From the NCBI GenBank assembly GCA_001949185.1, contig BDGG01000005.1, positions 2,643,972-2,707,971 of the forward strand: 64,000 nucleotides of DNA, given 5' to 3'. The translations under genes were made by a program, and so were the position numbers. Positions 4,039 through 42,626 of the stretch are shown in pieces. Position 1 is the first letter of the stretch, and the number at the start of each line of letters is the position of its first letter. The notes beneath the pieces are model-generated. The model was not told where the DNA came from. It made no database searches and worked only from the letters and a program-made list of their open reading frames with translations. Origin of the DNA: Ramazzottius varieornatus (lineage: Eukaryota; Animalia; Tardigrada).

Positions 4039-5145
4039 GGCCGAAGTTTCTTGCTGTCTGAGAACCGGGCTGTTAGCACCGAAACTGCTCCTCGTTGCCA
4101 CTGCACTTTGACATTGATTTGTGAGAGAGGAAAGAGCACAAAGTCAGGATGAGTTCACTGTCTACTAAACATACGTCTGCTTGAAAGGAAACGCGTATGC
4201 AGGAAGCAGTCTACAGCGAGCTTGATTACAAGTCATTCAACAAAACTGGGCGAGGTCGCAGAAGATTACTGCTCGATATTAAAACTGGATGTGATCTGCG
4301 GCTTGGGGATGCCCGAATCCTTTCACCTCGAATCACAATGATTGTATCACCACGATAATACGAGTGACTTTGAGCTGTTTGGAGTGCCGGAGTTATTCAC
4401 AACGTAAACAGTTGCTTTTGGACACTCAGTGTCACAAATTACCGTAATATTTGACTCACAAAGCTCGCGCAATACGTCGTCGTAAACTCTAATCATTTCT
4501 GATGGAAGTGCTACCCGCTGAGACTTATGGGCAATTTGCGAGCTGAGCGTCTATCATGACCTTCCGCTCAACGTTCATGGTTCATCAAGCGTTACAGTGC
4601 GGTATAGCCCGGCAAAATTTTGTTGCCGCCGATACAGTGTGAGGCTATTACGTAATGCTCGCAGAGCTTAGTAATACAACCTTGCATGCGACTTGATACC
4701 CCATGCCAAACCACTTCAGGTGGTCTAACATGGGATTTTTGGGCACGAGCTGTCGTTGCGGAGCTGGTTTTGTTCGTAAGTTTGTGTTTGAGCCCCTCTG
4801 CTGAACTTTGCCCAGTGAAGGGCAAAGTACAACATTAGTGGAGATAAGCTTGTGAATGGAATGTGACTGAGGAGTAGCGAAAGTAGGTCACAAAAGAAGG
4901 AGATAAGGCTATCGCATTGTATTCTGAGTCATACGGAGTAATTCTCGTGAATGGATAAGCTTGTGATAAGTTTGAGGGATCGTGATGCTATGTATCGGCA
5001 GTTGATCTGGTGATCGGACGGACAAAGGCCAGGTGATCGTGAAGACAAAACGTTGAACTCCATAAGCGCGTTTGAATCATGAAAATCTGACCACTGCAGA
5101 GGGAGCTATAAATTGTTGAATGAAGTAAGGGGTGCTCGAGTACTT

Positions 5146-5333
5146 ATTGGAGAGAAGGGAAGGGAAATGAATTTCACATTTCTACCCCGAAGTTTTCACC
5201 GTTCTCACCGAACTATAATTTAATCGATACAACCGTAAGCCATTGATTGACTGATACTCGGAGAAGAACGATGAGAACTTCAGGAAAGAAAAGTTAAATT
5301 CACGTCCCTTCTCTTCCCTTCAGCTACTCCAAT
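5146..5333. mobile_element. Degenerate MITE-like inverted repeat
   Basis: GAAGGGAAATGAATTTCACATTTCT...GAAGTTTTCACCGTTCT pairs imperfectly with AGAACGATGAGAACTTC...AAATTCACGTCCCTTC. Confidence 0.5.
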
Positions 5334-5435
5334 GGTAAGGAAGCAATGACACGGTTCAGAACGCGCTAATCGAAACTTCGAATTGACCCCGTTAAATTTT
5401 AATCAAGAGGAGCAGTACGGAGTCGGAAGAATCAG

Positions 5436-10433: not shown

Positions 10434-10798
<365 letters not shown>

Positions 10799-11311: not shown

Positions 11312-13707
11312 ATAACAACAGCACAAATTCTTTTTCGTTTTCTTTTCTAAAAATAGCAAGATTTAAACTAGCAGCACCGCGTCAATATGATTTTAGCACC
11401 ACTTAAAATTTGAAAAATTCGGAGCGTCAACATAGTGCTTGAAAGTTCCAAAGGCATTCAAATCAACAGCACTAGGGCAGAACAAAGAGTCTTTTAGCAG
11501 GGCTTCGGCGATGTAAGCAAATGAGCCGATGGTGGAATCAAGGAGGGAACGTGAAGAAGCGGCCATCGAAACTGGACTCAACATCAAGGCCACCCTACTT
11601 CTCGGAGGTGCTGATGGTATCGTTTGAAGTCCGGGTCGTGGCTTTGGTCTTCTTTTTCTGCTGGGCTAAGACGAATGCTTCGAAGGAACTTCTTCTGGAT
11701 CGATTCGAGCTGCTTTTGTAGGCTCTTGGTGGTGGTGAATCAGGAGGAGGATGCGTAGTCGGCAATCGATCGAACCAAGGATGTGAAGAGAAGTTGTTTC
11801 ACTGCTCCATAACGCTTAGGAAAGAGTCCATTGATACCGTAAAGTCTCTGCCTGCACTTTGCCGTAACTTTGTCCACCTGTACTGTCCACTCCATCTTGG
11901 TCGAGAGCTTGACGCCCAAACATTCAGCTTCGCTCACCAATGGAATCTTTTCTCTGTTGATCGTATAGCTGCCACTTGGCACCCCCACTTTCTTCATCTT
12001 ATTTGATATGCACAGATGCGGGGAATTTTCAGGATTCAGCTCAAGGCCAGTTTCTTTGCACCAGTCTTCAAGTCTCTGCAGGTCTTGTTGGAGCAAGGTA
12101 CAATCTTCTTTGCTTTTGATATTCCGCCATAGCACAATGTCATCTGCGTACTGCATCACGGTGCACTGCAGTCTTTTTGCCAAGTTGTTCACAGCAATAA
12201 TGAACAGGATCGGGCCAAGAACCGAGCCTTGCGGGACACCAGACGGGACAACGCACTCTGAAGAGAAGTGTCCCTCGACAGTCACTCTCTGACTTCTTCC
12301 GCGCAGGTAGTCGGACACAGATGCTCCAGCAAAACGAACAGCTGCAATGGCGAGATCTTGCCCACAATTTCTGAGAATATCGGAACGGATGTGAAAAAAA
12401 GCGTGACACATTCGCATTGCTCGACGCTGATATTTTCTCCCGAGCGCAACTTGCGCACTACGTCGTGGGGAAGAAGGTCGCGCAACAGCTTATCCACTCG
12501 ACTAGCTTCTGCTCTTAGAGTTTCCGTCTGGAGCGTCAGCTTCCTGTTCGAAATAATTTTGCTCTCAGAACAAACTCCAGCAGACAGACGATTGAGAATT
12601 TATTATTGATCTTCGAGCTCGTTGCTGTAGTGCATCAGTCGATCTCCAGAAGACATTCCTGATCTTTGGGGGTATACGGACTCTAGTGTTTCGAAGATGG
12701 CGTCGAGACTGGGACTTGTAGAATGTCTCTCGATTCCAACACGACATCATGAGATTCGAGAGCTTGGGAGGAACGGTATCAAGCTTTATTTAAAAATGTA
12801 ACCAGAATTAATTATTATCATTATGTGTTATTTTTTTTTAAATTTTAGTTTAGTTTCCGTCCATATATAACTGAAAAAGGGAGCAACCGACCGGTCGTGG
12901 TTGCCTGCTTTATTGATGTTAGATTATTTACTTTATAAAATTTTCTGTTCTTTGTATTTTTGTTTCTTAGTCTTATTTTGTTTATTATTCTTATACAGTG
13001 TCTTGTTTGTTATTAATTTCATTAATTAATATAATATGGAAGTTTAGCTTTGTGTGCGGGGTGCATTATTTAAAAACGTAACAAAGATCGAGACGAGAAA
13101 TGCAACGACACCTCCCAATTTGTAAGGGATTGCTCGTAAAATAGCGTATGCAAAGAAAAATATCATTCAGGTTGGATGACCAGAGGTAACTAAGCGTTTG
13201 CCGGAATAAAATTTTCCGCGTCTGTGAGAGAAAAGGGAAAACCATAATTAATTATTACAAATACAAATATAATCAAAAGTAAGGAAGTTAAATCTTTTAA
13301 AGAAAATAAGGGTGAAAAGTAATTTTGTCTATCCCCAGGCGCAGACCTAAGAGATTACTTGATTTTTGTTCATGAAGAAAAGTTAAATGTGTAATCACTA
13401 ATAGTCTGATAACGAAAGGTAAAACATAATGAAACAAGAAAAATCGAGCAAGAGTCGCGTCATTTACGAAGCAACCACCTCACACCCACTCGACTAACGG
13501 TGTTCCAATATATGGGATTGGTGACAATAGGTTTGTAATTACCGTCGCCCCCCAATAAAACATTTGACCCCAAGGTAGTACATAACCTAGAAAAGCCGTC
13601 ATTATAGATATTAAAAATATAATTACTCCCCTTTCTTTCTCCAGATGGTCCTCGTAAAAATCTGGAATTTCAAAGTCCCATTTGCCAGTTTAGTTCTTTT
13701 TACATAC

Positions 13708-15525: not shown

Positions 15526-16055
15526 CTAGTAGTCCGACTCTCGCGTCGCCTCTGCGATGTTGACATCAGTCTCCTCTTTAGAGAAGCCGTACTGGGAAAG
15601 GTCTCCCAGCCGGTCTTGGTCAAACATGATGAAATATTGGATGCACTTCAACTGGAGGATTGATCCTTTAATGATTGGGGTGTCCTGGCAGCAGTCAGCA
15701 TACCCTGTCTTGACTAGCTGCACGGTAACTCGACGTGAATTCATCCTTGTAGCTAAAGGAGATGGCGAATGAAACAGGTGTTGTTCCTCGTAGTTGTACA
15801 AAGGATTAGAAGCGTTGAATGGAAGGCTTCGAGGCTGAACAGGAGGTACTTCTCTAGTGATGCGTTTTTGAGGGGCATCCAGAGACTGAGCAAGTTTTCT
15901 CCAAGCTAGGAGAGTTGCGATGGTCTTACGGTTTTGCGGGTCGCGCAGGAACTGGCTAACCTGGGACGTTCCCAGGGTGGGGTCACTTGTGTGGTGGCAG
16001 TTGGCATGCCTGCCAGAACTATGCCGACAGCCAAGAGGAACAGGGATGAATGCAT
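15526..16055 (-). pseudogene. Accessory ORF B of the Gypsy element: signal-peptide protein of unknown function, one frameshift
   Basis: MHSSLFLLAVGIVLAGMPTATTQ, then a frame change into QVSQFLRDPQNRK...GYADCCQD...EATRESDY. It ends just before the putative PPT. Confidence 0.55.
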
Positions 16056-16496
16056 GTCGGTAGTGTGATATGATATGCCCAGTTGGTGAGATATAAAGAA
16101 GACTGCGCGATAAGAGGTTATAATCCGATGAGTCAGGAGAACTGCAGAATGAGAAAGGACGACTGCGGTATAAGTAGAGAAAACAAAGGTTCCTTGATGC
16201 TGCGGTAAGCAAAATAATGGATTTGCAGACGATGTAGAACGTGAGGTACATCGAAGTGATTTCAACCAAAAGCTGCGTCGGTCGGCACAAACGGGAAGGG
16301 CAATCAGGTAATAAGTCTGAAGTGTGTTGTTGTTTTTTAGTTTTGAGTGTTGACGACGTCGTGCTCGTCAAAAAGAAACATGTGATGCTGGGTATAAGTG
16401 ACTATCAGGTCGTAGTCGGTAAGGGAAAGATAAATGATAGATGATTGACTGCCGGTTGGTCGGTTAGAGATGTAAACCGGCCATTGGACAGGTAGC

Positions 16497-17186
16497 TCAG
16501 AGCAACTGAAGGAGCTCCTCAGGCATGTCGAATGCCGTGAAGAACTCAGCGCTTAGGTCGTGCCATTCAGGCATCATCGTCTCTCGTGGTTGAATGATGA
16601 GACAGGGTAGGAGGTACGTGTTGATGGTCATAGCTTTGACTAGCTGTTGGCCTCGACGAAGTATGTGCGCCGGTCGCGCGTACTGAAGTAAATGATGGTA
16701 ACGCTCGGTGTAGTTGATATTAGGGTCTAGATCAAGGTGGCCTCTATACTGTCTGAAGGTAGTGGAGCTGAAATCAAATTGATCCAGCGCTTCAGGAAGC
16801 CGTGCCAACATGAGGATAGGCCGCTTCAGGATAGACCACGTTGGTGACTGTACCGTCACAGAAGTAGTTGATAATGCTTGGATTGGTACGGAACAGCTGG
16901 GCTTGACCCTGCGTGTGGAAGATCGGAGCGTAGATGTCATACAGTGCCGTCATCCACGTGTTAGTGATGGCGATATCTTGGTGGTGAGTGTGCAGTACTG
17001 ACGGTACATCGGTATCTGCAACAGCGACATTTCGGAAATGGGTGGTTTCACGAAAGACTGAGTCGGTCGGAAACTAGCGCACGCGTCGGTAGGATAGAGG
17101 AAAAGGGAAACCATTAGGAGGGTGAATAGTAGTTGTCGGGTGGGATGCCGGGGTTGGTTGATCGTCCGGCAGTCGTTGATTGTCAT
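16497..17186 (-). pseudogene. Accessory ORF A of the Gypsy element: hydrophobic leader, unknown function, frameshifted
   Basis: MTIND...RQLLFTLLMVSLFLYPTDACAS. An alternative-frame middle (HQDIAITNTWMTALYDIYAPIFH...) joins EALDQFDFSS...MPEELLQLL. Confidence 0.5.
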
Positions 17187-17189
17187 TTG

Positions 17190-20110
17190 TTTAGCGTTTT
17201 GACAACCTCGGTAACCTCTTCGTTTAATTCATTGATTTGCTTCCTTGCTGGCTTCATCGGCGCAACATTCGGTGGCGCTGTCGATGGTAGCCCGTAGGAG
17301 TTGTTGTTGGTGGTAACTGGTGGTGGCCTGGTGAGGTTTCCTGAGGCATTGTCGTTCAGGGAGACCTGATCGTAATCGAAGTCAACTTGACTAGTGCGTG
17401 TGTCGAATCGTACCTTCGGAGACTTGCGTCGTGAGAATATTTTCCATGACTTGGAACGAGTTGTCAGCAGTGGCGCGGTGGATCTTGCTGTGGATCCGGG
17501 CGTGGAGTCGTTGTAGATGGAGTTAGACTCGGTAGGATGGTGCTGTTTTGGTTTCTTCTTAGGGCAGCGGCACGTCAGACAGCTGCGCAGAGTTTTCCAG
17601 CCACAGCATTTGACTATGATTAGGCCTACGATGACAATCGGAGCGAATACGAAGAGAACTATCTAGACATTTCTGAGAGAAGACACGAATCTCTCGATTG
17701 CCCCTTCGCCGATTACTGCAACGGTGTTTGTCTGTTCGCTGTCCTGTCGCTGAACGTGTCAATCAGGGAAGGGATTCCGGAATTTTCCATGATTGCTGAT
17801 AGCTCGCCGAGAAGGTCAAAGTAGCTGCGATCAGATGGCTCGTGCCAATTGGCCAACGACTGCATTGCAGTCGAGTCAGCCTCCATCTTGAACATGGCTG
17901 CCAAGTGATCATGGCTAATGGATATTGTTTGTTTGGCCTTCTGCCAGTCATGAGCATTTTCTTTGCATTCCATTATTTGATCGCCAACTGTCGTAAAGAG
18001 GCCACCGTGTAGGCAGGGAACGAAGGGATTGATCAGAGTGTAGCCACCAAGACTTAGAGAGGAGTTGAGGACGAACGGTTCCATTCCACACTTGGTCTTC
18101 TTAGCACTGATATCTGTGGTTACTTTCTGACACTGGTACAAAAGGGCTTGTGACGTCCCGTATGCCGTGATAGAATGGCAATCGTTTAGACCAATGAGTT
18201 TTGCGGCACGGACCCCTGACTGCTTCGCCATCATGGACAGGACGGCTGCTTTGTTGAAGCGGGATTGACAGTCCAAGTTGTGGACTTCATTATTCACAAC
18301 GTTGGAAATCTGGACTTGGTTACCGCGTAGGTACTGTAGGTGTGATATCAGGAACTCTTGGCGAAGATCACCAGAGGCTGCATACGGGAATACTTCCTCC
18401 ACGTCGGTATCGCTTGACTGGCGTAGTCGGTTCAGAAAGCCGACCTTGCTTTGTGCTCGCAATCCGGATTTTGACTGCTGCTGAGCTGGCTGAATAAACG
18501 GTGGCTGAATCTGTGGTAACACCAAGGGTAGAGCTACGGGTGGCTCAGGTTTACTTGGTGGGATGAATATAGGCTCGTGTTGCGGTGGTAGTACTTGCAT
18601 CTGCTTTGGTGCTTGCATGTAACGTGGGCCGTCGTAGAAGCTTTGATGATTGCGAGCGGCTTTGCTGATTCTATAACCGTCAGGATCATACTGTCTTCGG
18701 ACATCCGCCCGGAACTGGTTTTCAGTCTCGAGGTTGTCCTGCTCTTTTTGCAGCTGCTCCTGAAGGAGCCTTTCATCTTCCGTTCGAGTCCATTCCCCTT
18801 GCAGTCGGTGCTGCTCTAACCGGTCTTCGTACTCGGTTAGTTGTTCAGGAGTCAGGTGTTGCATGTTCGGAGGCTGAGGTGTCGTCTCTTGGTGTTGAGC
18901 GGGTCTTGACTCTATTCGCTCATTTGGTAGCGTTTGCGACAATGTCTGTGGTGGCGGTCGTTGTGGCAGGTTGACAGGGACCGGCACTGGTTGCGAAGTA
19001 CTGGTAATGTTGATTGGTCGTTGGTTTATGACTTGCTCCGTCGTTACGTTGATAATCGGTGGCATGACCATTTCAGGCATGACTCTTTTGGGTTCGGAAA
19101 TGTTGGTGGGGGTGCCTCTTCGCTGTTCTCCCAAGTCTACGTAGTTCGTACGGAGACTTGGGTCCAACCCATCTTGGACGGGAGGTTGGTTTTGCGCGAG
19201 GCTGTTGGGATTGACGTCTATATCGACTTGCGACCAGATCTAGGACGTCATCGTGCTCTTCTGATGTGTAGGTGAAGTTGCGGAGGACGTCGGAGAATCC
19301 TTTGACGACGTGACGCATGTCGACGAGCGTAGTACAGTTAGTTTACTGAGCTTGTTCAAATAGGATAAATTCAACTTACTTAGTAGGGTCCCGTAGACGA
19401 AGACGGGTCTTTTCGAGTTTGTACATAGTACCAGAACCGTTGGCGACAAGCTGGTACTCGCATTGTTTCTTCTTGGGCGATTGGTCAATCGCGTTCCATA
19501 TCACGGTCATGTGATTCTTGCTCGCATAACCTTTGTTGCGGTCGGCACCGAGCTCACCGAAAAACGAGATGATGAGTTCTTTCGGACCGCTCTGAGTGAG
19601 GACTGTATGTAGGTCAACAAGACAGTTCCAAACAGAGTTCTTCGTAGTGGCCATCCAGGAGTATTCACGGGAAGGCGGCCTGGTAAAGGCGTACGTCTCG
19701 GAATTCGGTAAGCGAACCATAGGGTTCCCGTTGCAGGAAAGCGTTTGAGCCATTCGCTTACAGTCTGCATCAGAGAGATCGACTGGGCCGGACGAAGGTA
19801 TCGTATCTGTGGCACCCCAGAAGGATTTGTAGGTTTCAATCTGTTGCAGCGTAGCTTTGCAGGTTGTTCCGATAAAGTACTGAGCGTCCTTTTTCATGGC
19901 GTAGATGGACGCCCAGCACTTTATCGGAACAACCTGCTTAGGCTCTGGCGCCAGCTTTTCACATGTAGTATAGGTGGCTGAATCCAGAAGGCCCAAAAAG
20001 TGTTGATTTTTGCAATTGCAGATGTCTGCCTGAATAGTAAAGGCCGTAGGCAGCATAATGAAACACAGTACGAATGTGAGCCAAGCAGGGAGGTGGTGCA
20101 TGGCATTCAT
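17190..20110 (-). pseudogene. env-like viral fusion glycoprotein (class III-like), with in-frame stops and frameshifts
   Basis: Signal peptide LPAWLTFVLCFIMLPTAFT; GTTC...YKSFWG...DLSDADCKRM...FTRPPSREYSWMAT...WNC; furin site RYRR (19214-19225); HLQY...NEVHNLDC...GVRAAKLIGLNDC...YQC; TM IVLFVFAPIVIVGLIIV (17612-17662) followed by KCCG...SCLTCRC. Confidence 0.8.
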
Positions 20111-20401: not shown

Positions 20402-23400
20402 TTAAATTGTTTCCAACCTAGGTCGAGGAGTTGCTTCCCGAGTGGTGGCTGCTTGCGGTGTCACCGGGCGAGGATCGGGAATCCTGAGAGGAGGCGGCAT
20501 GGCCTTCGATGCGATGTTCGACCTTCTTGGTGGAGTACGAACCCGTGGGTTGTCCAAGCTGGACTTCGGAAGTGTCTCGTCGGTTGTGGACTTGCTAGAG
20601 CGAGCAATCGTGATAGGTAGTTGCAACGTGTTGGGTCGGGTTGTAGGGTTTGTACGAGTAGGAGGTGGTTCGACTGTCGTTCCAGCAGACGTTATATAGT
20701 CGTCCTCTTCGGCGTCGTCGTCGTGTTGCTCGTTGAGTTTTGCAGTTGTAGCATTCCGCGATACTTGTGTAGCTAGTATTAGACGGTCATTCGCTGGAAC
20801 TGCTTCGTCATCAGAACTCTCAATGACTCTGAATTCTCTAGGGTGAAGTTCGTCGAAATCAGGTTCTTCGAGGTCCTCGTCGCTGCCGTTGCTTCTAACA
20901 TAACGTTTCAAACGAGCTATGCTAACAACGGTGCCCGTGTTTGAACCCGGTCGGTTGTAACTAATGCGGAAGTTGTTAGGACCAGTTTGTTGCAAGATGT
21001 CGTAGGGACCACCCCAATAGTGATGGAATTTGGATCCTACTCCTCTTGACCGCGCGGGCCTGAAGAGTAAAACTTGATCGTTTACTTTGAACGGAGTTCC
21101 CTTACGCTTGGGATTGTTATATGCAAAGTTGTATCGGCGTGACTCTTCCAGGTTAAACTGTGCGTAGGCTCGAATGTCTTCGAGATGCTGGTGTGTGTCA
21201 GCGAGGAAAGGTTCAGCGTAGTCGATCGGAAATGTGGAATCGGAACCGAAAAGACACTCAACCCCATACATAACTTTGTAGGGTGACACTTTGGTTGTTT
21301 CGATAGCTGACGCAATCATGGCGAAAACAGCGTAAGGAACGTGATTCGTCCAGTCCGACTGGGACTCGGCGCAAAGCTTGGTGAGCTGGGAACCCAGCGT
21401 GCGGTGTCGACGCTCAACCACTCCTGTGGTCGTAGGTTTCCACGCCGTGTTCTTCAGATGCTTCATGGCAAGCATTTTGAGCAGATGTTGTGTGATCTGA
21501 CCAGTAAACTCCACTCCCAAGTCCGACGGTACTACACTAAAAAACCCGTAGCGAAGAGCTACTTCCAGGAGGAACTTAGCGAAAGTGAGTGCCGTGTGGC
21601 TGGATGTTGTTTTGGCAACTAGGAAGCCGCTGAACTCGTCGATGCAAGGCAGGATGTAGGTGTTACCGTTAGATGACCTTGTGATGGGTCCGACGGTGTC
21701 GCATACCACCGAGTGCCAGACTCGAGGTACCACATGAATGTGTTGCATGAGTCCGTATTTCTCTGATCGACCAGGATTACGGGTCTGGCATGTGTGGCAA
21801 CTACCTACATATTGACGGATGTTGCGAGCCATGCCTTTCCAATAGAAGCGCTTATGGATAACTTCAAGGCACTTTTTGAAACCCAAATGGGCCAACCCGG
21901 TACGGTGGTCATGGACGGTCTCACAGACTTGTGTCCATAGTGTTTTCGGAAGGACTAGGTGCTGAATCCTATATCCCCATTGGTCGTTGGAAACGTGGTA
22001 GAGGATCCCGTTGTCGATGGTGAACATCTGGGCGAGACGTTGGACTCGTTCTGTTGTGTCCTGTGACTCTGTCGATGAGAATTCAATAATCGGTTTACAG
22101 AAGGGGTCCGTCAACTGTTCAGACGCAATATCCAGTGTTTGTAAGTCGAGCTGAGCGGACAGGTATAGAAGCGGGAACTCAGCAGGTTCGGTGCTATCCG
22201 GCGGAACGTCACCGATGGCATTGAGGCTGAAAGCTTCAGCATCTTTGTGCTTCGAACCCGAGCGATGGATATAAATAAACTGAAATTCGGACAACCGGAT
22301 GGACCAACGCTGGAGCTTCGCGTTTTGCGTTTTGAGGTTATTAATGGAGGTTAGGGAGATGTGGTCGGTGTAGACTACAACTCGTCTCCCAAGAATGTAC
22401 TTGCGCCACCGATCCGCGCAGTACAAGATGCCCAAGGCTTCACGTTCCGTAGTTGAAAGGTTTTGCTCAGGGCGGGAGAACTTGCGAGAGCAATACGCAA
22501 CCGGGTGAAAGTACTTGTCTGTACTTTTAAATTTCTGTAGAAGAACTCCTCCACAGCTGGAGTTACTCGCATCTACGTGCATGGAGTGCTCTGCTGCTCT
22601 CTCGTCGAAAAACGAGAGAAGAGGAGAAGAACACATCTTTCTCTTCAACTCTGTGAAGGCAGCATCCGCTTCTGGACTCTAGATTAGCTTTTGTGTCTTT
22701 GTGACGTTGGAACCTGCATACATTTGCGTAAGCGGATTAGCGATGCGGGCGAATCCATCGATGAACATTCTGTAGAATGAGAAGAGGCCGAGAAAGGAAC
22801 GGAGTTCGGTTACCGTAACTGGTTTAGGGTAGTCTCTGACAGCCTTTGGTTTGGCAGAGTCTTGGGAAATTCCCGCTTCATTGACGATGAAGCCGAGAAT
22901 CTTTGCCGATGGCATGGCAAACCGTGACTTCTTCACGTTGACTGTAAAGTTTGCTTCCCGTAGACGCTGGAACACACGGCGCAGCTTGGCTAGGTGTTCA
23001 TCGAAAGTTGTGGAGTTAATTGCCAAGTCATCGACGTAGATTGACACGTCGCGGTTCAGCATGTCGCCGGAGAGAGTGTTCATGGTTTGTTGAAAGATGG
23101 AACTAGCGAGGTTTACTCCAAACGGTAATACTTTATACCGAAATTTTCCAGCTTCTGTGATTACGCTAAGCTTGTCGCGCGAATCTTCGTGTACTAGGAT
23201 TTGGTTATATCCTTGTACAAGGTGAATGGTTGTAAAATAGCGGCCTCCACCCATGGAATCAAGGATATCCGATATGAGTAGCATACAGTATTTAGGCTCA
23301 ACTACTACCGTATTAAGACGCCGGTAGTCACCGCACATTCTCCAACTGGGGGGATCGGTGTTCTTTGGGACCAGGACTACTGGGGAGGCCCAAGGACTGC

Positions 23401-24230
23401 GACTAGGTTCGATGAGCCCTTGGTCGATAAGCTTCTTTATTTCTGCGCTGATTATCTCCCGCTCTTTCTGTGGCATCCGGCGCGCAGGCTGCCATATTGG
23501 CTTGGCATTCGCCGTATCGATACGAAGTGGCTCGACGTTAGCTACGCCAATAGGGTGCTCTGCTGAGGGAAAGAGGTCCATGTGTTCTCTCAAGAGCGCT
23601 TTTATGGCGAAAAACTGGTTTGGTTCAAGATGCTTCCCGAAGACCAGGTCTGGATCGACGGCATCTGTCCTCTGGTCAGGATCGTTTTCCACGAGATTTC
23701 CTGCTATGCAGTGTGTCAGCAGGCTGGCTACCTCTGCCGAAGGTCGTTTGTCCCACTTTTCATGCAAAGTGGCGTGATCATTCATCTGGTCACTGTCTTC
23801 CGTGGCGTAGAAGCAGTATGGCTTATCGCATGCGAATATTGTGTCACGTATATATTGTATCATCGTGCAAGACCAAAGATGTGTTTTCCACTGGTCTCGG
23901 TTGACGAACTACTGCTTACAGCCACACTCGAAATTAGGACCAAGGTGTTGTGCTGAAGCTTGTGGGCAGGAGAAGACATGAATGCGGTAGGCAAGCCATG
24001 AAGCATTTGGTGTCCCGCATGCACAGGTGAACAGATCTTTGGTTGACTCCAAGGTAAGAAGAGCCCTGTTTAGCCCAAAGCGAAGGATAGGGTTATCCTT
24101 GAAGAGGGCTAGTTGATCCATGTGATGCTTCGTGACGTTAATAGGAGGATATGTTGGACTCCTGATACACGATACAAACGTAGCGTTGTCCTTCTCGACT
24201 GTCTGTTGATTGGGTAACTGATCAGCGGTT
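20402..24230 (-). pseudogene. Gypsy pol: zinc-finger module, reverse transcriptase, RNase H and integrase (single frame, two premature TAG)
   Basis: RT: PWASPVVLV, CGDYRRLN, LPFG, YVDD. RNase H: VDAS, EREALG, YTDH. Integrase: HDH...HLG...CHTC, CDTVGP, SDLGVEF, VERRHRTL, GPY. The ORFs 23909-24358, 22679-23863 and 20402-22648 share one frame. Confidence 0.93.
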
Positions 24231-25063
24231 CCACCAGGAATCCGCTGAGTCACGGAAGCGTAAGGACGCATGTTCCACAATGTCCCTCGCTGGAATACGT
24301 TGAAGCTTGCAAGCCGTCTCAAACTTCTTGATGAACATACCGATTTCTTCGTCGTCATGGCCGTGGAACAACGGCATTGGAATGTTGATTTTTGTGGCAG
24401 CTATAGCCTCGATGAGGGTATCGGCATCGAGCTTGACTTTCTTCGGTATTTCGTTGCCGTTGTCATCTTCGTCGTCCTGCTGTTCGGTCTTAACTTCATC
24501 GACAGCGTCTGTTTTGGGCAAATTAACGAACAGACCTTTCGCTTCGTCGTTTCGTTTACCTCTTTCTCCCCCTTTTTCTTCATCGTGTCGTTCGATGTCC
24601 TCACTGTTGGCGTTCTTGGCCATTTTATATTATTGTTGTGCGGCTCTGGTTGCTTGAACGTGCTGGTGGTGGTGATGGTCTACCAGATCAGCGTTGATCG
24701 GAGAAATTGGTTGGTCCACGTCGGAGGCAGGTGAATTGATATGTCCTCCTAGTCGGCGGAAGGTGGACGCAACAATTGGCATTGCGTACTCAGTTGCCAA
24801 GCTGTCGGTGGTAGCGGAAGAAGTAGTCGAAGTTGACGACTGTAACGTGTTATAGGCAAGGGTGGTAGTGGCCTCGTTGAGTCGTGATGATCAGATAGAG
24901 TAGGAACTTCGGTATCCGTGTTAGTAACGTGCTTAGTTTTGACGACGGTTACTTCGAAACGTTGTTCTGTTTTCTGTGGTGACGTAGGGACTGACGAAGC
25001 GGTACGAGCTGTACCCTTTTCGGACGATGCTAGTATTGATTCAGATTTCCTTGGCGGAATTAC
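24222..25063 (-). pseudogene. Gypsy gag, N-terminal part only (capsid start); the rest of gag and the protease are missing
   Basis: PLFHGHDDEEIGMFIKKFETAC...ASLRFRDSADSWWN is a typical retrotransposon gag capsid N-terminus. The sequence then jumps into the pol frame, and no D(T/S)G protease motif was seen. Confidence 0.7.
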
Positions 25064-25832
25064 CATCAAAAACGGTAAGATGGTAATGAAGTGCAAGGCA
25101 GATTTGCAAACTGACAACCAGTCGTCGGCCAATCCAACCAGTATGCTACTGTGTTAATTGTAAGATACGAATATCTTGATGAAAATTTTGTTACTCGCAG
25201 GTCAGCTTATTATACGATAGAAAGGTCAGTTTGACGAAAGTAACACGGTAACGTATCAGCGTAGAATGCGCAAAGTAAGATACTGCTAATAGGAAAGTGA
25301 GACACTGCTAGCAGGACAATAAAGATATTGCTATTGTATGCGATTTCGCAAGGCGACGTGAGACGTGCGCGCGAAACCAAATTACCACGGTGGGTTACAG
25401 GAAGCAACGTATGGCCACGTTACAGACGTGCTCACGTTTTTGGTTACGACTATGGTTAGTTTCACGGTAGGCGACGATAAACGTGCACTCGTGTTCGGTT
25501 ACAGCTACCACCAGCTACAGCACAAGGCGACGTTAGACGTGCGCGTGCTTCTCTTTTTAGACCGTGAGTTACAGACAATTTTTTTTTGGGCAAGTTGCTG
25601 CCGGAACAGTGCAAAAAAGCTCGGAAGTAATCAATTTCGAAAGAAAATCGTAATGCTAGGTCTCAAGAGAAGGAAAGGAAAAAAGGAGTCCCGACTGTTA
25701 CTGAACAGTCGGTTTATATACTTTCACAGCGAAGCAGAAGGAAAGAGAAAGTTCTAAAAGTACGTGAAGTGTCCGTGCTGATTCAGCACGAGTGCTTTAT
25801 TACCGAGGTAAGCTCTTTACAGGTCTTTGGTT

Positions 25833-26146: not shown

Positions 26147-28163
26147 ATGCCTCCGGTAGCCAGCGATAGCCCTAGTGGACGACACCGTTACGGTACCAAA
26201 TACCCAGCGCTCGGCGTTGAAAGACGTTCGTCGCGCGGTCAGTGTGGATCGGGCCTTGGAGCTGTTCGCAGAACCCGGACGAGAAGACCGACAGGGAAGC
26301 CCAAGCCGCTTGGAGAATGGATTCAGAAGACTGGAAAGTGGATCTGGAAGACTGGAAAGACAGGGAACTGGTCCGGAATTACTTCGCGTGTCGGATAGAT
26401 CAGGAAGACAGGAAAGAAGAATGGAATACGAAGGGAGCGCGTATGTTGGTGGCCAAGTTGGACCTGGTGGACACGACGTCTTGATGGGTCAAATGGGACA
26501 TTCTTCCGGTGGACGATTACAAGGCGAACAAGCAGGCCGAAATGGAAGGGATCCGTGGTTGCCTACCGACGCCACCTACCCGACACCAGAAGAGATTGCC
26601 GCCACCCTTCGTCATGTCAAGCAGCTGGAAGCTAGAAACGAGTCCCTCCATCGTCAGGTACGCTCCTCCCCAACGTACTCAGTCTCCCGGGCCCCTTCGC
26701 CTCTACCGCAGTACGGCAATCAAATACCTTCCTCACCTACCCCAGTTGTCTACAGTGTCGTTTCAAAAAAGCCACCTCCTTCTACTCATTTCAACTTCCC
26801 CCCAGTCACTCCTACTGTTGACAAGCTGCTTCGACAAAAATCAGCCTACGTGGGTTTTCCAGGATCTGGTTACTGATAGATATGTGCCTGATAACACCAA
26901 GCGCAAACAACCCGGTGACCATAGTACAGGACACTTGGTGATCGTTGACTTGCCCTCCTGGCAAGATGCGTTTTTGACTTTCTCTCTCTATCGGAGCTAC
27001 TATTACCCCGATATGGCTATACCTTTCCTTGTCTATAGTAGCATTATCCGGGGGTTGGCTTCACGAAAGCCTGACGTGCGCTTTTGGTTGGAATATGACC
27101 AACGTTCCCGTCAAAAGATGGCATTGCCGGATTCTGATGTAACCGGGTGGTACCACGAGAACCGTGATATCGTTAAGGCCGTTAAAAATAATTTCAAGCC
27201 AACTGCTACTACTACCACAGTTATCGGCACCGTTGCTCGAGGTCCATACTCTGAGTGGATTCGCACCGCTACCTGCCATATATGCAGCGAGAAGGGCCAT
27301 ATCGCAAAAACATGCCCCAGCAAGAAAGAAGGTGTGAATAGATCTTCTAATAGAATTTTTAACATAGTTAAGTTAAGGAAATTCAAGATTTGTTCACGGT
27401 ATACAAAGCTAGAGTGAAAGCTACTAAACGGGATATTCTTAGCATTTGCGGACAATTGGGCTTCGCAACCAAATGTATCCCGGCTGGCAGAATCTTCCTC
27501 CGAAGGATGCTCAATCTTGCACATAAGGTTAAACAACTCGACCATCCTAAACTGAAACTGAACGATGGCTTCAGAGCAGATCTGCAGTGGTGGATAGATT
27601 TTCTTCCGACATGGAATGGCTCGTGCAAGTTTCTTCGGACAAAATGGGTGGCGACTCCAAGTATGCATCTATTCACCGAAGCATCAGGTAGCATCGGTTG
27701 CGGTGGTGTTTACGGCGTAGAATGATGGCCAAGCTGGCTACTTGAAGCCACCCATCCATTGCTTTGTTGGAACCGTTGCCAGTTTTGATCTCGTGTTGTG
27801 TTTGGGGGTCAAACTGGCAGACAAAGCGAATCTTATTTCATTCCGACAATATGTCGGTGGTCCAGATCTGGGCAAAATGTACGTCATCAAATGTCGCCAT
27901 CATGACGGTGATACGCCGCATCTATTTTGAAGCGGCAAACAACAATTTCACGCTAAGAATAACGCACATAAGCGGTGTCGATAATACATTGGCTGATGCT
28001 GTGTCTAGATTCGACAACGCGCGGTTCTTCGAAAACCATCCCAAGGCCAATACCGAGCCCATAATGGTAGACAAACATCCTCGATTTTTTGCGGGAGATC
28101 ATGCTAGAACGCGGAAACTGTTCGAACTCGATGCAAGATCGCAAGAGCTCGTCGGTAAGCGAT
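26147..28163 (+). mobile_element. DIRS-order (Ngaro-like) retroelement: gag with CCHC knuckle, RT C-terminus/RNase H, start of tyrosine recombinase; RT core deleted
   Basis: gag: WQDAFLTF...FWLEYDQRSRQKMA...CHICSEKGHIAKTCP. RT/RNase H: LSICGQLGFATKCIPAGRIFLRRM, DLQWWIDFLPTWNG, LFTEASG, FHSDNMSVV, HISGVDNTLADAVSR. Confidence 0.88.
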
Positions 28164-28225
28164 NNNNNNNNNNNNNNNNNNNNNNNNNNNNNNNNNNNNN
28201 NNNNNNNNNNNNNNNNNNNNNNNNN
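28164..28225. other. Assembly gap (62 N)
   Basis: Run of N. Confidence 1.
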
Positions 28226-28997: not shown

Positions 28998-29790
28998 CTA
29001 ACCTGAGATTCGCAGCATAGTTTGGGTCAAGGAGACCATATCTGGTCGGACGTATCGGTTTGAAACGTCGCTGCTCCATCTACCCATGGCCCTAATCTGT
29101 TCCATGGAGCATCCGGCTTTAGAAGCCGTCGAAGCCGCTCCTATCCGGAAACTATGAGAGGTAAAGCCATCCCCGAGAAAAATTTGTAGCTCGCGATTGA
29201 CACGTTGGCGAGTCAGGTAGCATCCATCATGGGAAATGAATAATGGTGTATGTCTTGCTGAAGATCTGACCAGCATATAAGCGTGAAGGGCTTGTACGGG
29301 ACAAGTATCCGTTTGAGTTTTTGTTAGATAAACTGCAGGAGGTGTGGTTTTGCGATGGGTTTTATCTCGCCGCAAACATATTTGGACCGAATCGCAGGAT
29401 ATTTGTAAGTCATTCAGGACAAGGTTTGATTTGTCAAAACTTGTCTCCTTCGAACTGGTATACTCGGACACACGTAACATGCCGTAGAAGGCCATGGTAA
29501 AAGCCGACCAAAGCATCAGTTGGTCGTGTCGAGGAAAGAGAGATCCGAATAGGTCAGCTTTGAGCTGTCGTAAATGTTCTATTGTCAGAGGCTTTCTCTT
29601 ATATGTGTCGGGACGGGTTTGATTGGTTAGACCTTTCAACATCATTGAGAGGTAATAGTCATTTCTACCAGGAACAGAGTATCCGGACGGATTTCTTGAG
29701 GGTAGAAGCCATCTATTTTCGAGGATCTGTCTGGTGTGGCGAACTTTGGAAGGCAATCGAGCTAGCCGGAGCTCCACCATCCTGTAAGTA
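28998..29790 (-). CDS. Tyrosine recombinase of a DIRS/Ngaro element (N-terminus damaged)
   Basis: Catalytic set GMLRVSE, DKT, CPVQAL, SHSFRIGAAS, GRWSS and RYVR. Confidence 0.92.
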
Positions 29791-29864
29791 ACTTCAATCA
29801 ACCGCACCAGCTGTTGATTTGTGGCATTACTGCCTGTGGCTGTCATTCTTTCTCTTCCTACAGA

Positions 29865-32800
29865 AATGACCGATGTCCTAGGGATGACCGCTAGGGAAAT
29901 GGGGAGACAACTGACCCTGCGCTATGCGAATCTCAATGGGATAAAGTCAAAGACGGAAGAGGTGAAGTCATGGACGGAGAAAGGCAAAGCTGACATCGCG
30001 GCCTTCGTTGAAACATGGGCTGACGACAGCGTAACGGATTCATTGATTGTTGACTTGGTAAAGTTCAACGTCTACAGGAAAGACAGAGTGGGATGCCAGA
30101 AAGAATGTGGTGGTGGTGGTATCGCGATCGTAGCCAAGAAAGACCTCCACACTCTGAGAACTGTTGAATATGAAGTGGATGGACTGGAGCTGATGTGGGT
30201 AAAGATTGTGGGGATGAAGATGGTCGCACTGGTTGGTGTCCTCTACGCTCCAGGATATGATATGGAAGTGTTTGCAGAGCTTCCATATCATATTGCAGAG
30301 CTGCTCAAGGGATTGCAGAGCCGATCCCTTGAGAAGATTCCACCGTACCTGCGAAGAAACCTGTCCTAGTAGGTGACTTCAACTGCGCAGACATCGACTG
30401 GGAAGACATGTCGGCTAAGAAACCCCGTACAAGAGAGCTGATATCTATCACGAGAGAGTTTGGTTTGTTCAAGAAGGTACGAGGTATCATCAGACAACGT
30501 AAAGAATCGTCATCCTGCCTTGACCTCCTCTTCGTAACTCAGCTTAGTCCGGTTCGTCAAGTCAGTATTCTTCCCAAGTTAACGTTCTCCAACGATCATC
30601 GTGGACTGCATTGTGCGCTGAGACTGTGGACGGTAAGCTTCCCAGCTCCGCCGAAGCCAATATGGGTGTTCGAGGCTGGAAGTCAGCAAGGTTTCCGTAA
30701 AGATGTGGACAGAGTCGACTGGAGATCGTTCTTCGATACTCAGTGTAACTCAGATATGGCAGCAGCTACCTGCGAAGCCAAACTGGTGGAAATTGCGCAG
30801 AAGCACTTCAGGTTGAAGAAAGTTGGACCCGGAAGTCTGAACCGACCATCACTCTCTCCACGGGTTATTGAAAGCCTTAAGAGACGTGACTGGGCTTTCG
30901 GGAAACGGAACAAGATGAGAAATTCAAAAGACTACAACTGTTGGGTGGACCGCGCAAGAGAAACAAAGAGGCTCCTGAAGGCAACCAGGGCGAAACAGCT
31001 CCGAAAAATCACCACTTTGTCAAGAAGGTGTCCAGAAGTGCTGTGAAAACATGTCAAGCGGTCGACAAAGTCAGAACGTCTTCTTCCTATCCCTCTACCT
31101 GGCGCTGAAGAGGAGTACCTAATCCATCCGAAAGAGAAAGCTAACCACATTGCCTCCGTCTTCCTGAAAGATTATGTCGACTGTGACCACCACTGCCACC
31201 ACCCAATAAACGAAGCTCAATCAACTGTGACCAAATGTAAGGAGTGGTTGCAAAACTCAAATGTTTCAGCACCGGAAGTATGGAATGTACTGAGGAACAT
31301 CTCTGTGAAGAAAGCAGCAGGCTCATCCCTTCTAACAAATGCTCTGATGAAGGCTGCTGGCTTTGCTCTCGTATATCCACTCCCTCGCCTCTTCAACCTT
31401 ATCCTTTCCACCAAGCAGTATCCTACCTTCTGGAAGAGGGCCGATGTTGTGCCGGTGCCGAAGAAGGGTGGCGCCACCTGGAGCCCACTATCTCTTTTAC
31501 CACTTCTGTCAAAAGTTTCTGAGAAGATTTTAGCTTTACAAATTTCGAGCTTCTTAGCGAAACACTTTGGTTTTAGGGCAAAACGGTCCACAGAATCCCA
31601 GCTGCTCCTTATGGTCCATCGGTGGTCACAATCGCTCTCCGAGGAGAAGGAAGTGGAAGCTGTGTGTCTCGACTGTACAAAAGCCTTTGATCGTATTCCT
31701 CATGAAGTGCTAGTGAGAAGTCTCCAAGACCATGGTGTTACTGGTGACTTGCTGGAACTGCTGGCAGGCTACCTACGTGGAAGGACTCAAAGAGTGACAG
31801 TTGGAGGCTACTATAGTGAATACAACGAGGTTCGGTCAGGCGTTCCGCAAGGTTCCGTTCTGGGCCCGCTGTTTTCCATTGTGGCGGTCAACAAGCTTTC
31901 CGACCAGGTGAAGTGCGAGCTCTTCCAGTACGCTGACGACTTGGTCGCTCACCATGTGATCGCTAGATCTGAAGACTGCCAAGCCTTTCAAGAATGTCCA
32001 AACCAGCTGGGTGAGAACTGTCAAGAAGCTAGGCTGAGTCTAAACCCGACGAAATCCCAACACATCCGCCTTTCCTTCAAAACATCTGGAAGTATTCCTG
32101 TCCCTCAAGGCAGCTATCACATTACCAGCCAGAATATCCCAACGGAAAGCCAGTCCACGTGCCTTGGTGTGGTGATCGACAGAAAGCTCAACTGGACCGC
32201 GCAGGTCGACGCAGTGTCTGTCAAGTGCCGGAAACGTCTCCACGCCATCCGCACGTATTTTCCACCACGCCGTGGTGCAGCCAGGCAACTCCTGTGCAAG
32301 AGCTTATTTCTTCCGGTCGCCGAATACGCCTGCTCAGTATGGAATCCAACAAACCATAAGCACCAAAGGCAACTGGAGCAGGTACAGAAAGATTTCCTGA
32401 AGAGCATCCGGCTGAGCAAGATACCAAAAGGACAACACGACAGCGATTTCAGCCAGTATCGCCAGCACCTGGCGGAAGTTCAGTGGGATTATCTGTGGAT
32501 GAGAAGAGCCAAGGCTGTGCTGGTCAACGCCTACCAGATTCGGACCGGAGGGTTCCCCGATGGAGAGCTCCTACTTACCAACGCTGGAGGCCTTCCGCAC
32601 CCTCGAGTCAACACAAGGAGCCAAGACCCGGCAAAGGTTCCTGACAGGAAGTTCCGAACTCAACCAGCCACAAGAATTAAAGAGGTTGACACTCTCAAGG
32701 TAACTTCTGATACGTTTGCCTATGTCGCCTCTGCTCTGGTAAATGATTCGAAATTTTGCCCATCTTCTGTAAATTGTCAAAGCTTGCCAGCCTTTAAATC

Positions 32801-32995
32801 TTTTCTCGATAAGCTGGATCTCCGTGGTTTTTCGTGGTGTGTGAAAAACATAGATAGTAGACTCTTGTAATTGTTACGTTTATTTGTTTGAACCTTTTTA
32901 TCTGGATCTCTTGCCCAATTTTTCATATTGTGTCATAGGCTGAGCACTTTGCTGGCGATTAAACACGATTAAAGCGAATAGTAATGATAATTAAG
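29865..32995 (+). mobile_element. Non-LTR retrotransposon (CR1/L2-group) ORF2: AP endonuclease plus RT, frameshifted
   Basis: APE: YANLNG, VETW, YRKDR...GGGIAI, GDFN, CLDLLF, NDH. RT: LDCTKAFDRI, GVPQGSVLGP, YADD. The ORF ends at 32870, followed by a 3' UTR and a short degenerate TAA-like tail. Confidence 0.93.
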
Positions 32996-33182: not shown

Positions 33183-33321
33183 TATGGGCGGCGGATGCGG
33201 TTACCGTCCAAAGTAGCTATCGAAACTGACAGCTGCATGTTTCGATAGCTATCAAAACACGTACCAGATAGCTGTCAGTTTCGATAACTACTTTGGACGA
33301 TGACCGCATCCGCCGCCCATA
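33183..33321. mobile_element. MITE with about 50-bp terminal inverted repeats
   Basis: TATGGGCGGCGGATGCGGTTACCGTCCAAAGTAGCTATCGAAACTGACAGCT pairs with AGCTGTCAGTTTCGATAACTACTTTGGACGATGACCGCATCCGCCGCCCATA. Confidence 0.85.
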
Positions 33322-33420: not shown

Positions 33421-33888
33421 GAATCAGAACAAGTGGCTGAAAGATATAAAAATACCACTAGTTCCTAATTTCCTTCAGAAAACCAGATCTTCCTTTCTCA
33501 GCCTCGGATTTGAATTTTAAAACATTCAAACTACGTTTTGATAGAAAAGAATTGTTCCCAGTCACGGGACTTCTGTAAGGACCTGCCCAAAAAATCAAGC
33601 AAAAGGGTAAACTTTGGCCGCCTCAAAAAATAGCCTCTTTCTGAGCCTACCTTGCGCTATCCAACCGAGTCGAAACGTGCGGGCTCCATTACACACGCAT
33701 GCAACACACTGCACTACCGTCAGAAGAATAAATCAGGGCGATCGGAGGTGCGGCGGAGGCGCGGCACACGACGACCTAGCACGCATTCTAGCTCGGAGTT
33801 TGGAACTTGATATACCTAAGTCCCTTGTTCCTGAGTTTTTCCACCTAGACCTGTGTCTGTCTGGTAACCATGGATGGCTTTTGTGCAT

Positions 33889-35584
33889 AGGTTCCCAGGA
33901 TTGAATTTAATTTGTGCAGAAGAGGTAAGCTGGATATACGTCATCATTTTGCTCGACCAATGGGAAGAAAAAAATGGATTCTTCCGGGTGTCTTGAAGCA
34001 GGTCGATAGTACATGGTTCCTGAGGTGTAGGAAAAGAGAATCGAGCCGATCTGACGGTTAACTTCACTTTAATGACCGGTCGACTATTCCCAAACGGTAT
34101 AGTGTCTCAGTGGAGCCTTCTGTGCTTTTGATCATGATATTATAAGGTTAGTTTTACTGTAAATAATTAAACTTATCAACAACAGCACTGCGCATCTTTA
34201 TGTCACCCGTCACGCGACAAGCAATAATGAGCAATACCGACGCTCATAAACTTCACCGAACATCTGGAACCGTCCTATTAACATCGATACTGTCTAGTAT
34301 GACAATTTAAGGAAATGTGGGTCGACAATTTTATTATGTTTGACAGGAGCTCTTATATCGTTCGCCCAAACACCAAACGAACGAACCTAAACCGAAAATA
34401 TCTTGTGTAATGGATCGAGCTGAACGCTTCAGCATGACAAGTTCGGTTTCACAGAGCAAAGCAGATACTGCATAGGTACTCATCACAGAAAAAAGGAATG
34501 GTATTAGCGGCAAAACGAACGCAAATTTCTCTGTTCAAGAGGCGTGAGTTACGCAATCAAATCCGCGTCCGTTTGTTATTGGCAAGCACTTTAAGAAGTC
34601 CAATGGCATAATTTACATGCAGAAAATCGCATCTATAAAGCTGAAAAGGTACACGTCTCTTTTTGTATTATTCTCATTATTAACAATCGTTGTTTCTGGA
34701 TTGAAGATTGATCTCTTTCAGGTGAAAAAACGCGTTTCCCTAAAACTGCAAGCGAAACACTGAAGTATCTTATTAGCAACTTGTATACGGAGCGCTTCAG
34801 CGACGTCTACTCGCTCATGGAGATCTTTGCCGTTACCCCCGTCACTTCCGCAACAGGCGAACGTTTCTTCTCAAAGTTGAGGATTGAGAAGAATTACTTT
34901 CGTTCACGTATGGGCAACGATCGCCTCAACGGACTCACCCTAACCAATTTCCATAAAGAGTACCGAATCGACCACAAACAAGTCGCACAAAGGTATCTCG
35001 AGCGACCACTCGGCGACTTGCCGCTGACTACGGAGCCAACGCGCGAAGTTAACCTCGCGAACATGGAGGATGCGGATGAGATCGATCAACAAGGCCTGGA
35101 TCCAGAATTTCATGCGTTGGATGCGGACGAGTAATATCAAGATGTGCAATGCTTTCACTGATAAGCACGCTTTCATTATGGAAACAGCTCTTAAAAAATA
35201 TCTACAGAATGGTATCGTTTCGGATTTCCATATTATGTCCGATGATCACATAAGATTATTCCCCGTCCCTCTAATATCCAGACACATCAAATTCACAAGT
35301 CGATTAAAACATGATTTCCAGAACAAGAAGTTGTTATTCGAATTTTCGTTATGGCATTGCGGGCAAACCAGGACTGAATATAAACATCGTGAAACTCTGA
35401 GCGAACCTGCCAGAATTTTCTGAACTTGCATCTTGCTTGCGCTTACACCTCAGGAACCATGTACTATCGACCTGCATCAAGACACCCGGAAGAATCCATT
35501 TTTTTCTTCCCATTGGTCGGAAAATGATGACGTCTATCCAGCTTACCTCTTCTGCACAAATTAAAAATTCAATCCTGGGAACCT
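33889..35584. mobile_element. 1.7-kb unit bounded by about 140-bp inverted repeats (33889-34029 and 35444-35584), carrying a hAT transposase fragment
   Basis: AGGTTCCCAGGATTGAATTT...CATGGTTCCTGAGGTGTA is the near-exact reverse complement of TACACCTCAGGAACCATG...AATTCAATCCTGGGAACCT. Confidence 0.75.
34781..35134 (+). pseudogene. hAT transposase C-terminal dimerisation domain fragment
   Basis: PVTSATGERFFSKLRIEKNYFRSRMGNDRLNGL matches the hAT dimerisation motif. Confidence 0.85.
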
Positions 35585-35589
35585 TTGCC

Positions 35590-42500: not shown

Positions 42501-42626
42501 AGAATCACGATGTCCATCCCCTTTGCGATCAATATTGTTCCTGGTAGACGAATCTTGGTCATTATGACGGCTGCGAGAATCTGTCCTGTCGGAGTTCAGA
42601 CGACGTTGATCCACGGCTGAATCCAT
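39535..42626 (-). CDS. DDX23: DEAD-box RNA helicase DDX23/Prp28 (U5 snRNP), multi-exon
   Basis: RS/RE-rich N-terminus, [22 protein letters not shown]...[31 protein letters not shown] and [10 protein letters not shown]. Confidence 0.96.

What the first reader, a model, noticed from the sequence alone, without database searches (positions are those of the whole stretch)
23762..24031. Three tandem zinc fingers in Pol immediately upstream of reverse transcriptase
Seen, in the pol frame: FTCACGTPNASWLAYRIHVFSC (C-x-C-x12-H-x3-C), FECGCKQ*FVNRDQWKTHLWSC (same spacing) and FACDKPYCFYATEDSDQMNDHATLH (C-x4-C-x12-H-x3-H). These have classical C2H2/C2HC-type spacing, not the CCHC gag knuckle or integrase HHCC. 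Known: canonical Ty3/Gypsy Pol has no such array between protease and RT. Inference: a captured nucleic-acid or chromatin-binding module that could affect targeting or packaging.
Basis: partly seen in the sequence, partly recalled or inferred. Interest (0 to 1): 0.72.

Follow-up and report, generated by a model that had tools for sequence, protein, structure and literature searches.

The report
Zinc-finger trio in tardigrade retrovirus-like Pol
A broken retrovirus-like element in a tardigrade genome carries three predicted zinc fingers just ahead of its reverse transcriptase, a likely old add-on that may help the enzyme grip its nucleic-acid template.

Summary
The three Cys/His motifs are real: they lie at 23762-24031 on the minus strand, in the Pol frame of a decayed Ty3/Gypsy element (gag-pol-env-like ORF) of Ramazzottius varieornatus. 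No shuffle gave three such motifs (0 of 20,000). They are two C-x-C-x12-H-x3-C fingers and one C-x4-C-x12-H-x3-H finger, predicted as beta-beta-alpha units (low confidence, Pfam sub-threshold). Other copies in the genome carry the array. Two distant relatives keep 11 and 12 of 12 ligands at about 20% identity elsewhere. One of them appears to run on into the helix before RT, so the module is probably an old, selected part of Pol. 0 of 66 other Gypsy Pol proteins have such a motif between protease and RT. Best guess: an RT-side nucleic-acid-binding accessory in a family whose Gag model lacks a CCHC knuckle. Function is inferred, not shown. New variant of a known kind (gB-type errantivirus).

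The parts
23966..24031 (-). Zinc finger 1, F-x-C-x-C-x12-H-x3-C (C2HC)
   Evidence: ligand codons checked; weak Pfam C2H2_ASCIZ_4th E 0.049
23867..23932 (-). Zinc finger 2, F-x-C-x-C-x3-F-x5-W-x2-H-x3-C (C2HC); broken by an in-frame stop at 23909-23911 in this copy
   Evidence: weak Pfam zf-C2H2 E 0.057 and C2CH-4th_BIRD-IDD E 0.18
23762..23836 (-). Zinc finger 3, F-x-C-x4-C-x12-H-x3-H (C2H2), acidic helix
   Evidence: matches a host-type multi-C2H2 protein P0129 at 39% over this finger
24032..24224 (-). Pol-frame spacer upstream of the fingers; no family assigned
   Evidence: not matched by a profile of 36 other protease-RT spacers
24224..24225 (.). Junction of an internal deletion that removes the rest of Gag and presumably the protease in this copy
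   Evidence: loose ends on both sides in runs X1, X2, X4; P0134/P0135 match stops at 24225 and their Gag continues
24225..25066 (-). Gag remnant (N-terminal part, frameshifted near 24860, and start of the capsid domain)
   Evidence: 81-92% identical to P0134/P0135, which carry Pfam Retrotrans_gag further on
23591..23650 (-). Helix that precedes RT in Gypsy Pol; shared colinearly with relative P0127
   Evidence: profile match from residue 203 on
22883..23371 (-). Reverse transcriptase core, YVDD at 23038
   Evidence: Pfam RVT_1 E 1e-24
22283..22585 (-). RNase H; a second in-frame stop lies just upstream at 22679-22681
   Evidence: Pfam RT_RNaseH E 1e-28
20402..21949 (-). Integrase: HHCC, core, GPY motif at 21010, then a low-complexity tail; no chromodomain hit
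   Evidence: Pfam Integrase_H2C2, rve
17183..20110 (-). Broken env-like ORF: hydrophobic N-terminus, Cys-rich ectodomain, RYRR site, Pro/Gln-rich insert, membrane-like segment near 17668
   Evidence: Pfam Rhabdo_glycop_FD E 0.0026, 18.9 bits, under the cut-off of 22

Best explanation
Three Cys/His motifs sit in the Pol frame of a decayed, env-bearing Ty3/Gypsy element; they are predicted beta-beta-alpha zinc fingers, likely an old, selected accessory module of Pol that would help reverse transcriptase hold its RNA or cDNA template inside the particle. Shown: the motifs, their frame and position, their presence in other copies, ligand conservation in distant relatives, and decay of this copy. 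Inferred: zinc binding and fold; that an ancestor took the module from a host or viral C2H2-clan protein; that it stays on the RT N-terminus or is cut free by the protease; and that it binds nucleic acid without reading a fixed sequence, adding to the basic Gag tail of a family whose Gag model has no CCHC knuckle.
For: Not chance: 0 of 20,000 shuffles. Conserved: P0127 keeps 11 of 12 ligands with 15 of 76 other positions identical, and P0128 keeps 12 of 12 with 14 of 75. P0127 aligns colinearly from finger 1 into the pre-RT helix (28% over 152 columns; the post-finger part alone beats all but 2 of 5,000 shuffles). Fold: the AlphaFold model of P0128 shows three strand-strand-helix units. 43 of 45 Foldseek rows shown for the window's own model are C2H2 arrays, though none is significant. 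Atlas neighbours of P0128 and P0127 are C2H2-clan proteins, including zf-met and dsRNA-binding jaz types, and P0128 has weak jaz/zf-met Pfam hits. Long non-TGEKP linkers argue against base-triplet reading. The Gag model of another copy has no Cys after residue 430 and ends in an Asn/Gly/Arg-rich tail. Position next to RT.
Against: No binding was tested. Models are weak (mean pLDDT 57) and fold searches gave nothing significant. The relatives were found partly through the Cys/His/Trp matches, which inflates ligand conservation, and there are only three. P0130 has lost 7 of 12 ligands. P0127's Pol context rests on about 20 residues: it ends before RT proper and did not score against a profile of 36 other spacers (-2.5 bits). 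The window's array is not basic (6 K/R, 8 D/E), though P0127's is (14, 6). Drosophila Gypsy Gag works through an unstructured NC-like peptide (PMC1635307, abstract), so lack of a knuckle does not call for a substitute, and P0135 is an automatic gene model. Copies in this genome show no purifying selection: 18 of 20 differences examined change the residue, and one copy lost both His of finger 3.
Confidence: 0.45

Rival explanations
1. The array is a protein-binding adaptor: it docks Pol on Gag or on a host factor (particle assembly, nuclear entry or tethering of the integration complex).
For: C2HC fingers with aromatic helices (13 aromatic residues in 90; conserved Trp in finger 2) and neutral to acidic charge. 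Weak matches to ASCIZ and BIRD-IDD C2HC fingers. That C2HC fingers such as FOG's bind proteins is recalled, not from a call.
Against: Known targeting modules of Gypsy elements are chromodomains C-terminal to integrase (PMC13524379, section 8). This array is separated from integrase by RT and RNase H. No partner identified.
Confidence: 0.25
2. The array reads target DNA and steers integration, like the N-terminal zinc fingers of R2 non-LTR elements.
For: R2 clades are defined by N-terminal zinc fingers that take part in target recognition (PMC11204384, abstract). Foldseek's nearest rows are DNA-binding C2H2 arrays.
Against: No TGEKP linkers, linkers of 8-11 residues, acidic finger 3, and helix residues that differ between relatives. 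A profile search of solved structures returned no R2 protein at E up to 10. In LTR elements integrase, not RT, engages the target (established knowledge).
Confidence: 0.1
3. A passenger: a zinc-finger fragment that landed in frame in the tolerant protease-RT spacer and has no role for the element; the relatives are unrelated C2H2 proteins or dead copies.
For: Copies in this genome decay neutrally. P0130 has lost most ligands. P0128 ends 15 residues after finger 3 and may be a free-standing protein. Only three relatives among 1.84 billion representatives.
Against: Ligands kept at 11 of 12 while other positions fell to 20% identity, in a protein that also shares the pre-RT helix in register. The same unusual C-x-C / C-x-C / C-x4-C order is kept.
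Confidence: 0.2

Closest known systems
HSV/gB-type 'ancient errantiviruses' of Tardigrada (Chary and Hayashi, PMC13524379; five elements from Hypsibius and Paramacrobiotus, none from Ramazzottius in the table rows found)
   Same: Tardigrade host; gag-pol-env order; Gypsy RT-RH-IN; class III-like env signal; LTRs not listed for 4 of their 5 tardigrade elements, none found here.
   Different: The paper's main text has no occurrence of 'zinc' or 'C2H2'; the only extra Pol domain it treats in the sections read is the chromodomain. This copy is broken.
Chromodomain-bearing Ty3/Gypsy elements
   Same: A captured accessory domain inside Pol.
   Different: Chromodomains lie C-terminal to integrase; this module lies before RT and is a zinc-finger array. 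No chromodomain hit here.
R2 non-LTR retrotransposon N-terminal zinc fingers
   Same: A short zinc-finger array upstream of RT in a retroelement polyprotein.
   Different: R2 is a non-LTR element with target-primed reverse transcription; no sequence link was found. A likeness of layout only.
Classical C2H2 (PF00096) clan, incl. small C2H2/zf-met/jaz proteins of Nucleocytoviricota
   Same: Ligand pattern, hydrophobic core positions and predicted fold. Atlas feature scores 0.92-0.95.
   Different: C-x-C first pair, terminal Cys in fingers 1-2, long linkers, all Pfam scores below cut-off. Atlas rows do not show descent.

Membership tests
Ty3/Gypsy LTR retrotransposon (Metaviridae) | Pol order RT - RNase H - integrase with YxDD, HHCC and GPY/F | tested here: met
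Ty3/Gypsy LTR retrotransposon (Metaviridae) | Gag with retrotransposon capsid domain upstream of Pol | tested here: met
   Truncated in the window; Retrotrans_gag in 81-92% identical copies P0134/P0135
Ty3/Gypsy LTR retrotransposon (Metaviridae) | Aspartic protease before RT | tested here: inconclusive
   Absent from the window; the stretch where it belongs is deleted; no protease-bearing copy could be read
Ty3/Gypsy LTR retrotransposon (Metaviridae) | Flanking LTR pair, PBS | tested here: inconclusive
   No direct repeat between the two ends. Both ends abut other repeats, and joints 14583>25650 and 25822>14593 in contigs may reflect split LTRs. PBS not tested.
Errantivirus, HSV/gB-type env | Third ORF with signal peptide, Cys-rich class III ectodomain and membrane anchor | tested here: inconclusive
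   Layout fits; Rhabdo_glycop_FD E 0.0026 is under its cut-off; no PDB sequence match; no fold was predicted for it
Errantivirus, HSV/gB-type env | Placement in the RT tree with tardigrade errantiviruses; C2c cysteine bridges | not tested
   Reference sequences not available; best RT identities among fetched Pol were 41% or less
Classical C2H2-clan zinc finger | C-x2-4-C-x12-H-x3-5-H/C ligand spacing | tested here: inconclusive
   Finger 3 fits; fingers 1-2 have C-x-C and a terminal Cys
Classical C2H2-clan zinc finger | Pfam score at curated cut-off | tested here: not met
   zf-C2H2 14.3 bits against 25.2; none of 4 alignment members passes
Classical C2H2-clan zinc finger | Beta-beta-alpha fold | tested here: inconclusive
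   Predicted at low confidence; Foldseek rows are C2H2 arrays at E 0.43 or worse
Classical C2H2-clan zinc finger | Zinc binding | not testable with these tools
   Needs bench work
Kruppel-type DNA-reading array | TGEKP-like five-residue linkers and basic recognition helices | tested here: not met
   Linkers 11 and 10 residues; finger 3 has 1 basic and 5 acidic residues

The most novel reading that the evidence does not exclude
A lineage of enveloped tardigrade errantiviruses acquired a three-finger module of the kind found in small giant-virus or host proteins and kept it for a long time as a Pol-borne nucleic-acid chaperone in place of the Gag zinc knuckle: a new accessory slot in Gypsy Pol, before RT. 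The family may also travel as a larger LTR-poor unit with a tyrosine recombinase, which lies upstream of its gag at three loci.
Probability: 0.2. Interest if true: 0.75.

Novelty: new variant of a known kind. Interest (0 to 1): 0.5.

Why it matters
Fixed extra domains in LTR retrotransposons are considered rare and point to host-element interactions (PMC9289625, abstract passage). The known ones in Gypsy Pol sit at the integrase end. A conserved zinc-finger array before RT would be a new place for such a domain and a small, testable unit. It bears on how knuckle-less errantiviruses handle their RNA, and gives a marker for a little-studied tardigrade lineage. The weight is limited: the copies seen are dead, relatives are few, and function is untested.

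Tried and rejected
No whole genome is held, so other loci were seen only through gene models and contigs. Word-based protein search with the array region against 703-2239-residue proteins: 0 hits among 122 candidates. Profile search of 336-2000-residue proteins: only the window's own protein among 2,919 candidates; both are weak negatives. Of 6 hits, P0125 is the window's own, P0126 is a chance repeat match and P0129 a generic C2H2 array; these were dropped before the ligand count. Peptide-pattern scans of viral contigs and metagenome contigs: none confirmed. DNA ligand-pattern scans: 65, 10 and 12 loci. None had RT, and nearly all were stop-ridden frames; the best, L015, was a single finger-like match at 13 bits. 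Fold searches of the P0128 model: nothing significant in PDB, BFVD or VIA-wide (best Z 3.0). VIA-wide for the window's model was not run. PHROGs: weak only. No RNA holder listed; a contig from a run guessed to be RNA covers fingers 1-2 but is not evidence of expression. The idea that the stretch before finger 1 is a protease end or dUTPase-like spacer got no profile support. R2 origin: no support. One of 119 control Pol proteins (P0024) has Cys/His repeats before RT but of another pattern and was not among the hits. No earlier findings. Literature searches for such an array listed no paper whose title or abstract start describes it; most subscription papers and repeat databases were not searchable.

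Full report
Observation. The three motifs are in the sequence as written, on the minus strand at 23966-24031, 23867-23932 and 23762-23836, in the frame that continues into RT, RNase H and integrase. Finger 2 holds an in-frame stop at 23909-23911, and a second stop lies at 22679-22681. Three such motifs within 100 residues never arose in 20,000 shuffles of Pol, of the pre-RT part, or of the array's own 100 residues.

The element. Pfam gives RVT_1, RT_RNaseH, Integrase_H2C2 and rve in Gypsy order, with YVDD, HHCC and GPY motifs. Downstream is a broken ORF with a hydrophobic start, Cys-rich parts, an RYRR site and a membrane-like segment, and a sub-threshold hit to the rhabdovirus glycoprotein fusion domain (E 0.0026). 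Cluster members of the window's proteins are named Ramazzottius varieornatus. [quoted passage not shown] I found no LTR pair here. The element works like, and most likely is, one of these gB-type errantiviruses, but tree placement was not tested.

The protease is not in the window. The gag frame stops at 24224, contigs of other copies leave the window on both sides of 24224|24225, and two gene models from other scaffolds match the window up to 24225 and then go on through the capsid domain. This copy therefore has an internal deletion, and 'between protease and RT' is inferred. The longer model, P0135, has no Cys after residue 430 and ends in an Asn/Gly/Arg-rich tail, so no CCHC knuckle. It is an automatic model and may be incomplete.

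Other copies in the genome. Contigs from all four runs laid (three samples) cover part or all of the array. They differ from the window at the stop codon, so the stop is not shared. Of 20 listed differences in the Pol frame that I examined (the table showed 40 rows over a wider stretch and hid 21 more), 18 change the residue and 2 are silent. None hits the eight ligands of fingers 1-2, and two remove both His of finger 3 in one copy, as in gene model P0132. These copies look dead and say nothing about selection. A curation paper lists no R. varieornatus LTR subfamily with ongoing activity (PMC11071193, passages).

Distant relatives. phmmer of the 154-residue region against 1.84 billion representatives gave 6 hits: the window's own protein, a chance repeat, a generic C2H2 array, and three true relatives. 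P0127 keeps 11 of 12 ligands with 15 of 76 other positions identical; P0128 keeps 12 of 12 with 14 of 75; P0130, a decayed relative of P0127 (47 of 88 identical), keeps 5 of 12. P0127 aligns colinearly from finger 1 to the helix that precedes RT. That last part alone scores above all but 2 of 5,000 shuffles, but it did not score against a profile of 36 other spacers and the ORF ends before RT proper, so its Pol context is probable, not certain. P0128 ends 15 residues after finger 3 on a 721-base contig; its context is unknown. The search favours Cys/His/Trp matches, which inflates the contrast. Further searches found no more relatives.

Control. The Pol search listed 120 of 262 hits; 119 had an RT match, at 41% identity or less. 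In 66 a protease motif was found before RT, and 0 of these 66 have a finger-like motif between the two.

What kind of fingers. Pfam scores are about half the cut-offs. AlphaFold gives three strand-strand-helix units for P0128 and matching helices for the window's segment, both at mean pLDDT 57. Foldseek finds nothing significant, but 43 of 45 rows shown for the window's model are C2H2 arrays; the P0128 model gave no such pattern. The atlas places P0128 and P0127 among C2H2-clan proteins, several from Nucleocytoviricota, at 0.92-0.95. That is a lead on fold, not on origin. Linkers are 8-11 residues without TGEKP, finger 3 is acidic in the window and in P0128, and net charge varies from slightly acidic (window) to basic (P0127). 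This does not fit a Kruppel-type DNA-reading array.

Mechanism. I put most weight (0.45) on a Pol-borne nucleic-acid-binding accessory beside RT. The reasons are its position, the jaz/zf-met likeness, the long linkers and the knuckle-less Gag model. Against it: nothing was assayed, the window's array is not basic, and Drosophila Gypsy Gag manages with an unstructured NC-like peptide (PMC1635307, abstract). Rivals are a protein-binding adaptor (0.25), a passenger (0.2), and R2-like target reading (0.1; PMC11204384, abstract; no sequence link).

Novelty. Five literature searches (listings only) showed no description of such an array in Gypsy Pol, and the errantivirus survey's main text never mentions zinc. 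Repeat databases and most subscription papers were not searchable. The element type is known; the module in this slot appears to be undescribed. Verdict: real feature, new variant of a known kind, interest 0.5.

A side lead. Both gene models from other scaffolds splice a tyrosine recombinase, 94-96% identical to window 29004-29642, onto this family's Gag. The recombinase thus lies upstream of gag, on the same strand, at three loci. A nested DIRS/Ngaro insertion copied with the element, a segmental duplication or a true composite would all explain it; I could not read those loci.

Noticed in passing
window 28998-29846 (-) and 24225-25036 (-): A tyrosine recombinase lies upstream of the Gypsy gag here and, by spliced gene models P0134 and P0135, on two other scaffolds (94-96% identical): a co-copied unit, nested insertion or composite element.
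   Followed up: partly
window 26160-28160 (+): DIRS/Ngaro-like remnant: gag-like ORF with a CCHC knuckle, then what reads as the RT end and RNase H with most of RT missing (by eye), cut by the N gap at 28164-28225; opposite strand to the recombinase.
   Followed up: partly
window 18350-19100 (-): A long Pro/Gln-rich, mucin-like insert in the env-like ORF after the RYRR site; no Pfam hit.
   Followed up: no
window 15526-17186 (-): Extra ORFs downstream of env (241, 147 and 78 residues) at a contig depth like that of the element's interior; no Pfam hit for the 241-residue one. Possibly accessory genes.
   Followed up: partly
window 14583/14593 and 25650/25822: Contig joints link the two ends of the element in both directions although the ends share no similarity in the window; may be a split or permuted LTR.
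   Followed up: partly
window 23551-23728: Another copy lacks these 178 bases between finger 3 and RT (runs X1, X2, X4).
   Followed up: no
window 29866-32870 (+) and 11740-12489 (-): A LINE-like element (endonuclease and RT) next to the recombinase, and a separate RT fragment.
   Followed up: no
window 33885-35588: A 147-base inverted-repeat pair (95%) around about 1.4 kb, like a non-autonomous DNA transposon; hairpins also at 33183-33321, 45649-45792 and 47671-47806.
   Followed up: no
window 10435-10797: A perfect 51-base tandem array.
   Followed up: no
window 1700-6900, 41421-42785, 52942-53628: Host genes: duplicated guanylate-cyclase-like exons, a DDX23-like and a DCAF17-like ORF.
   Followed up: no
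protein P0024: An unrelated Gypsy Pol from an ENA record with tandem Cys/His-rich repeats (27 Cys in 266 residues) before RT.
   Followed up: no
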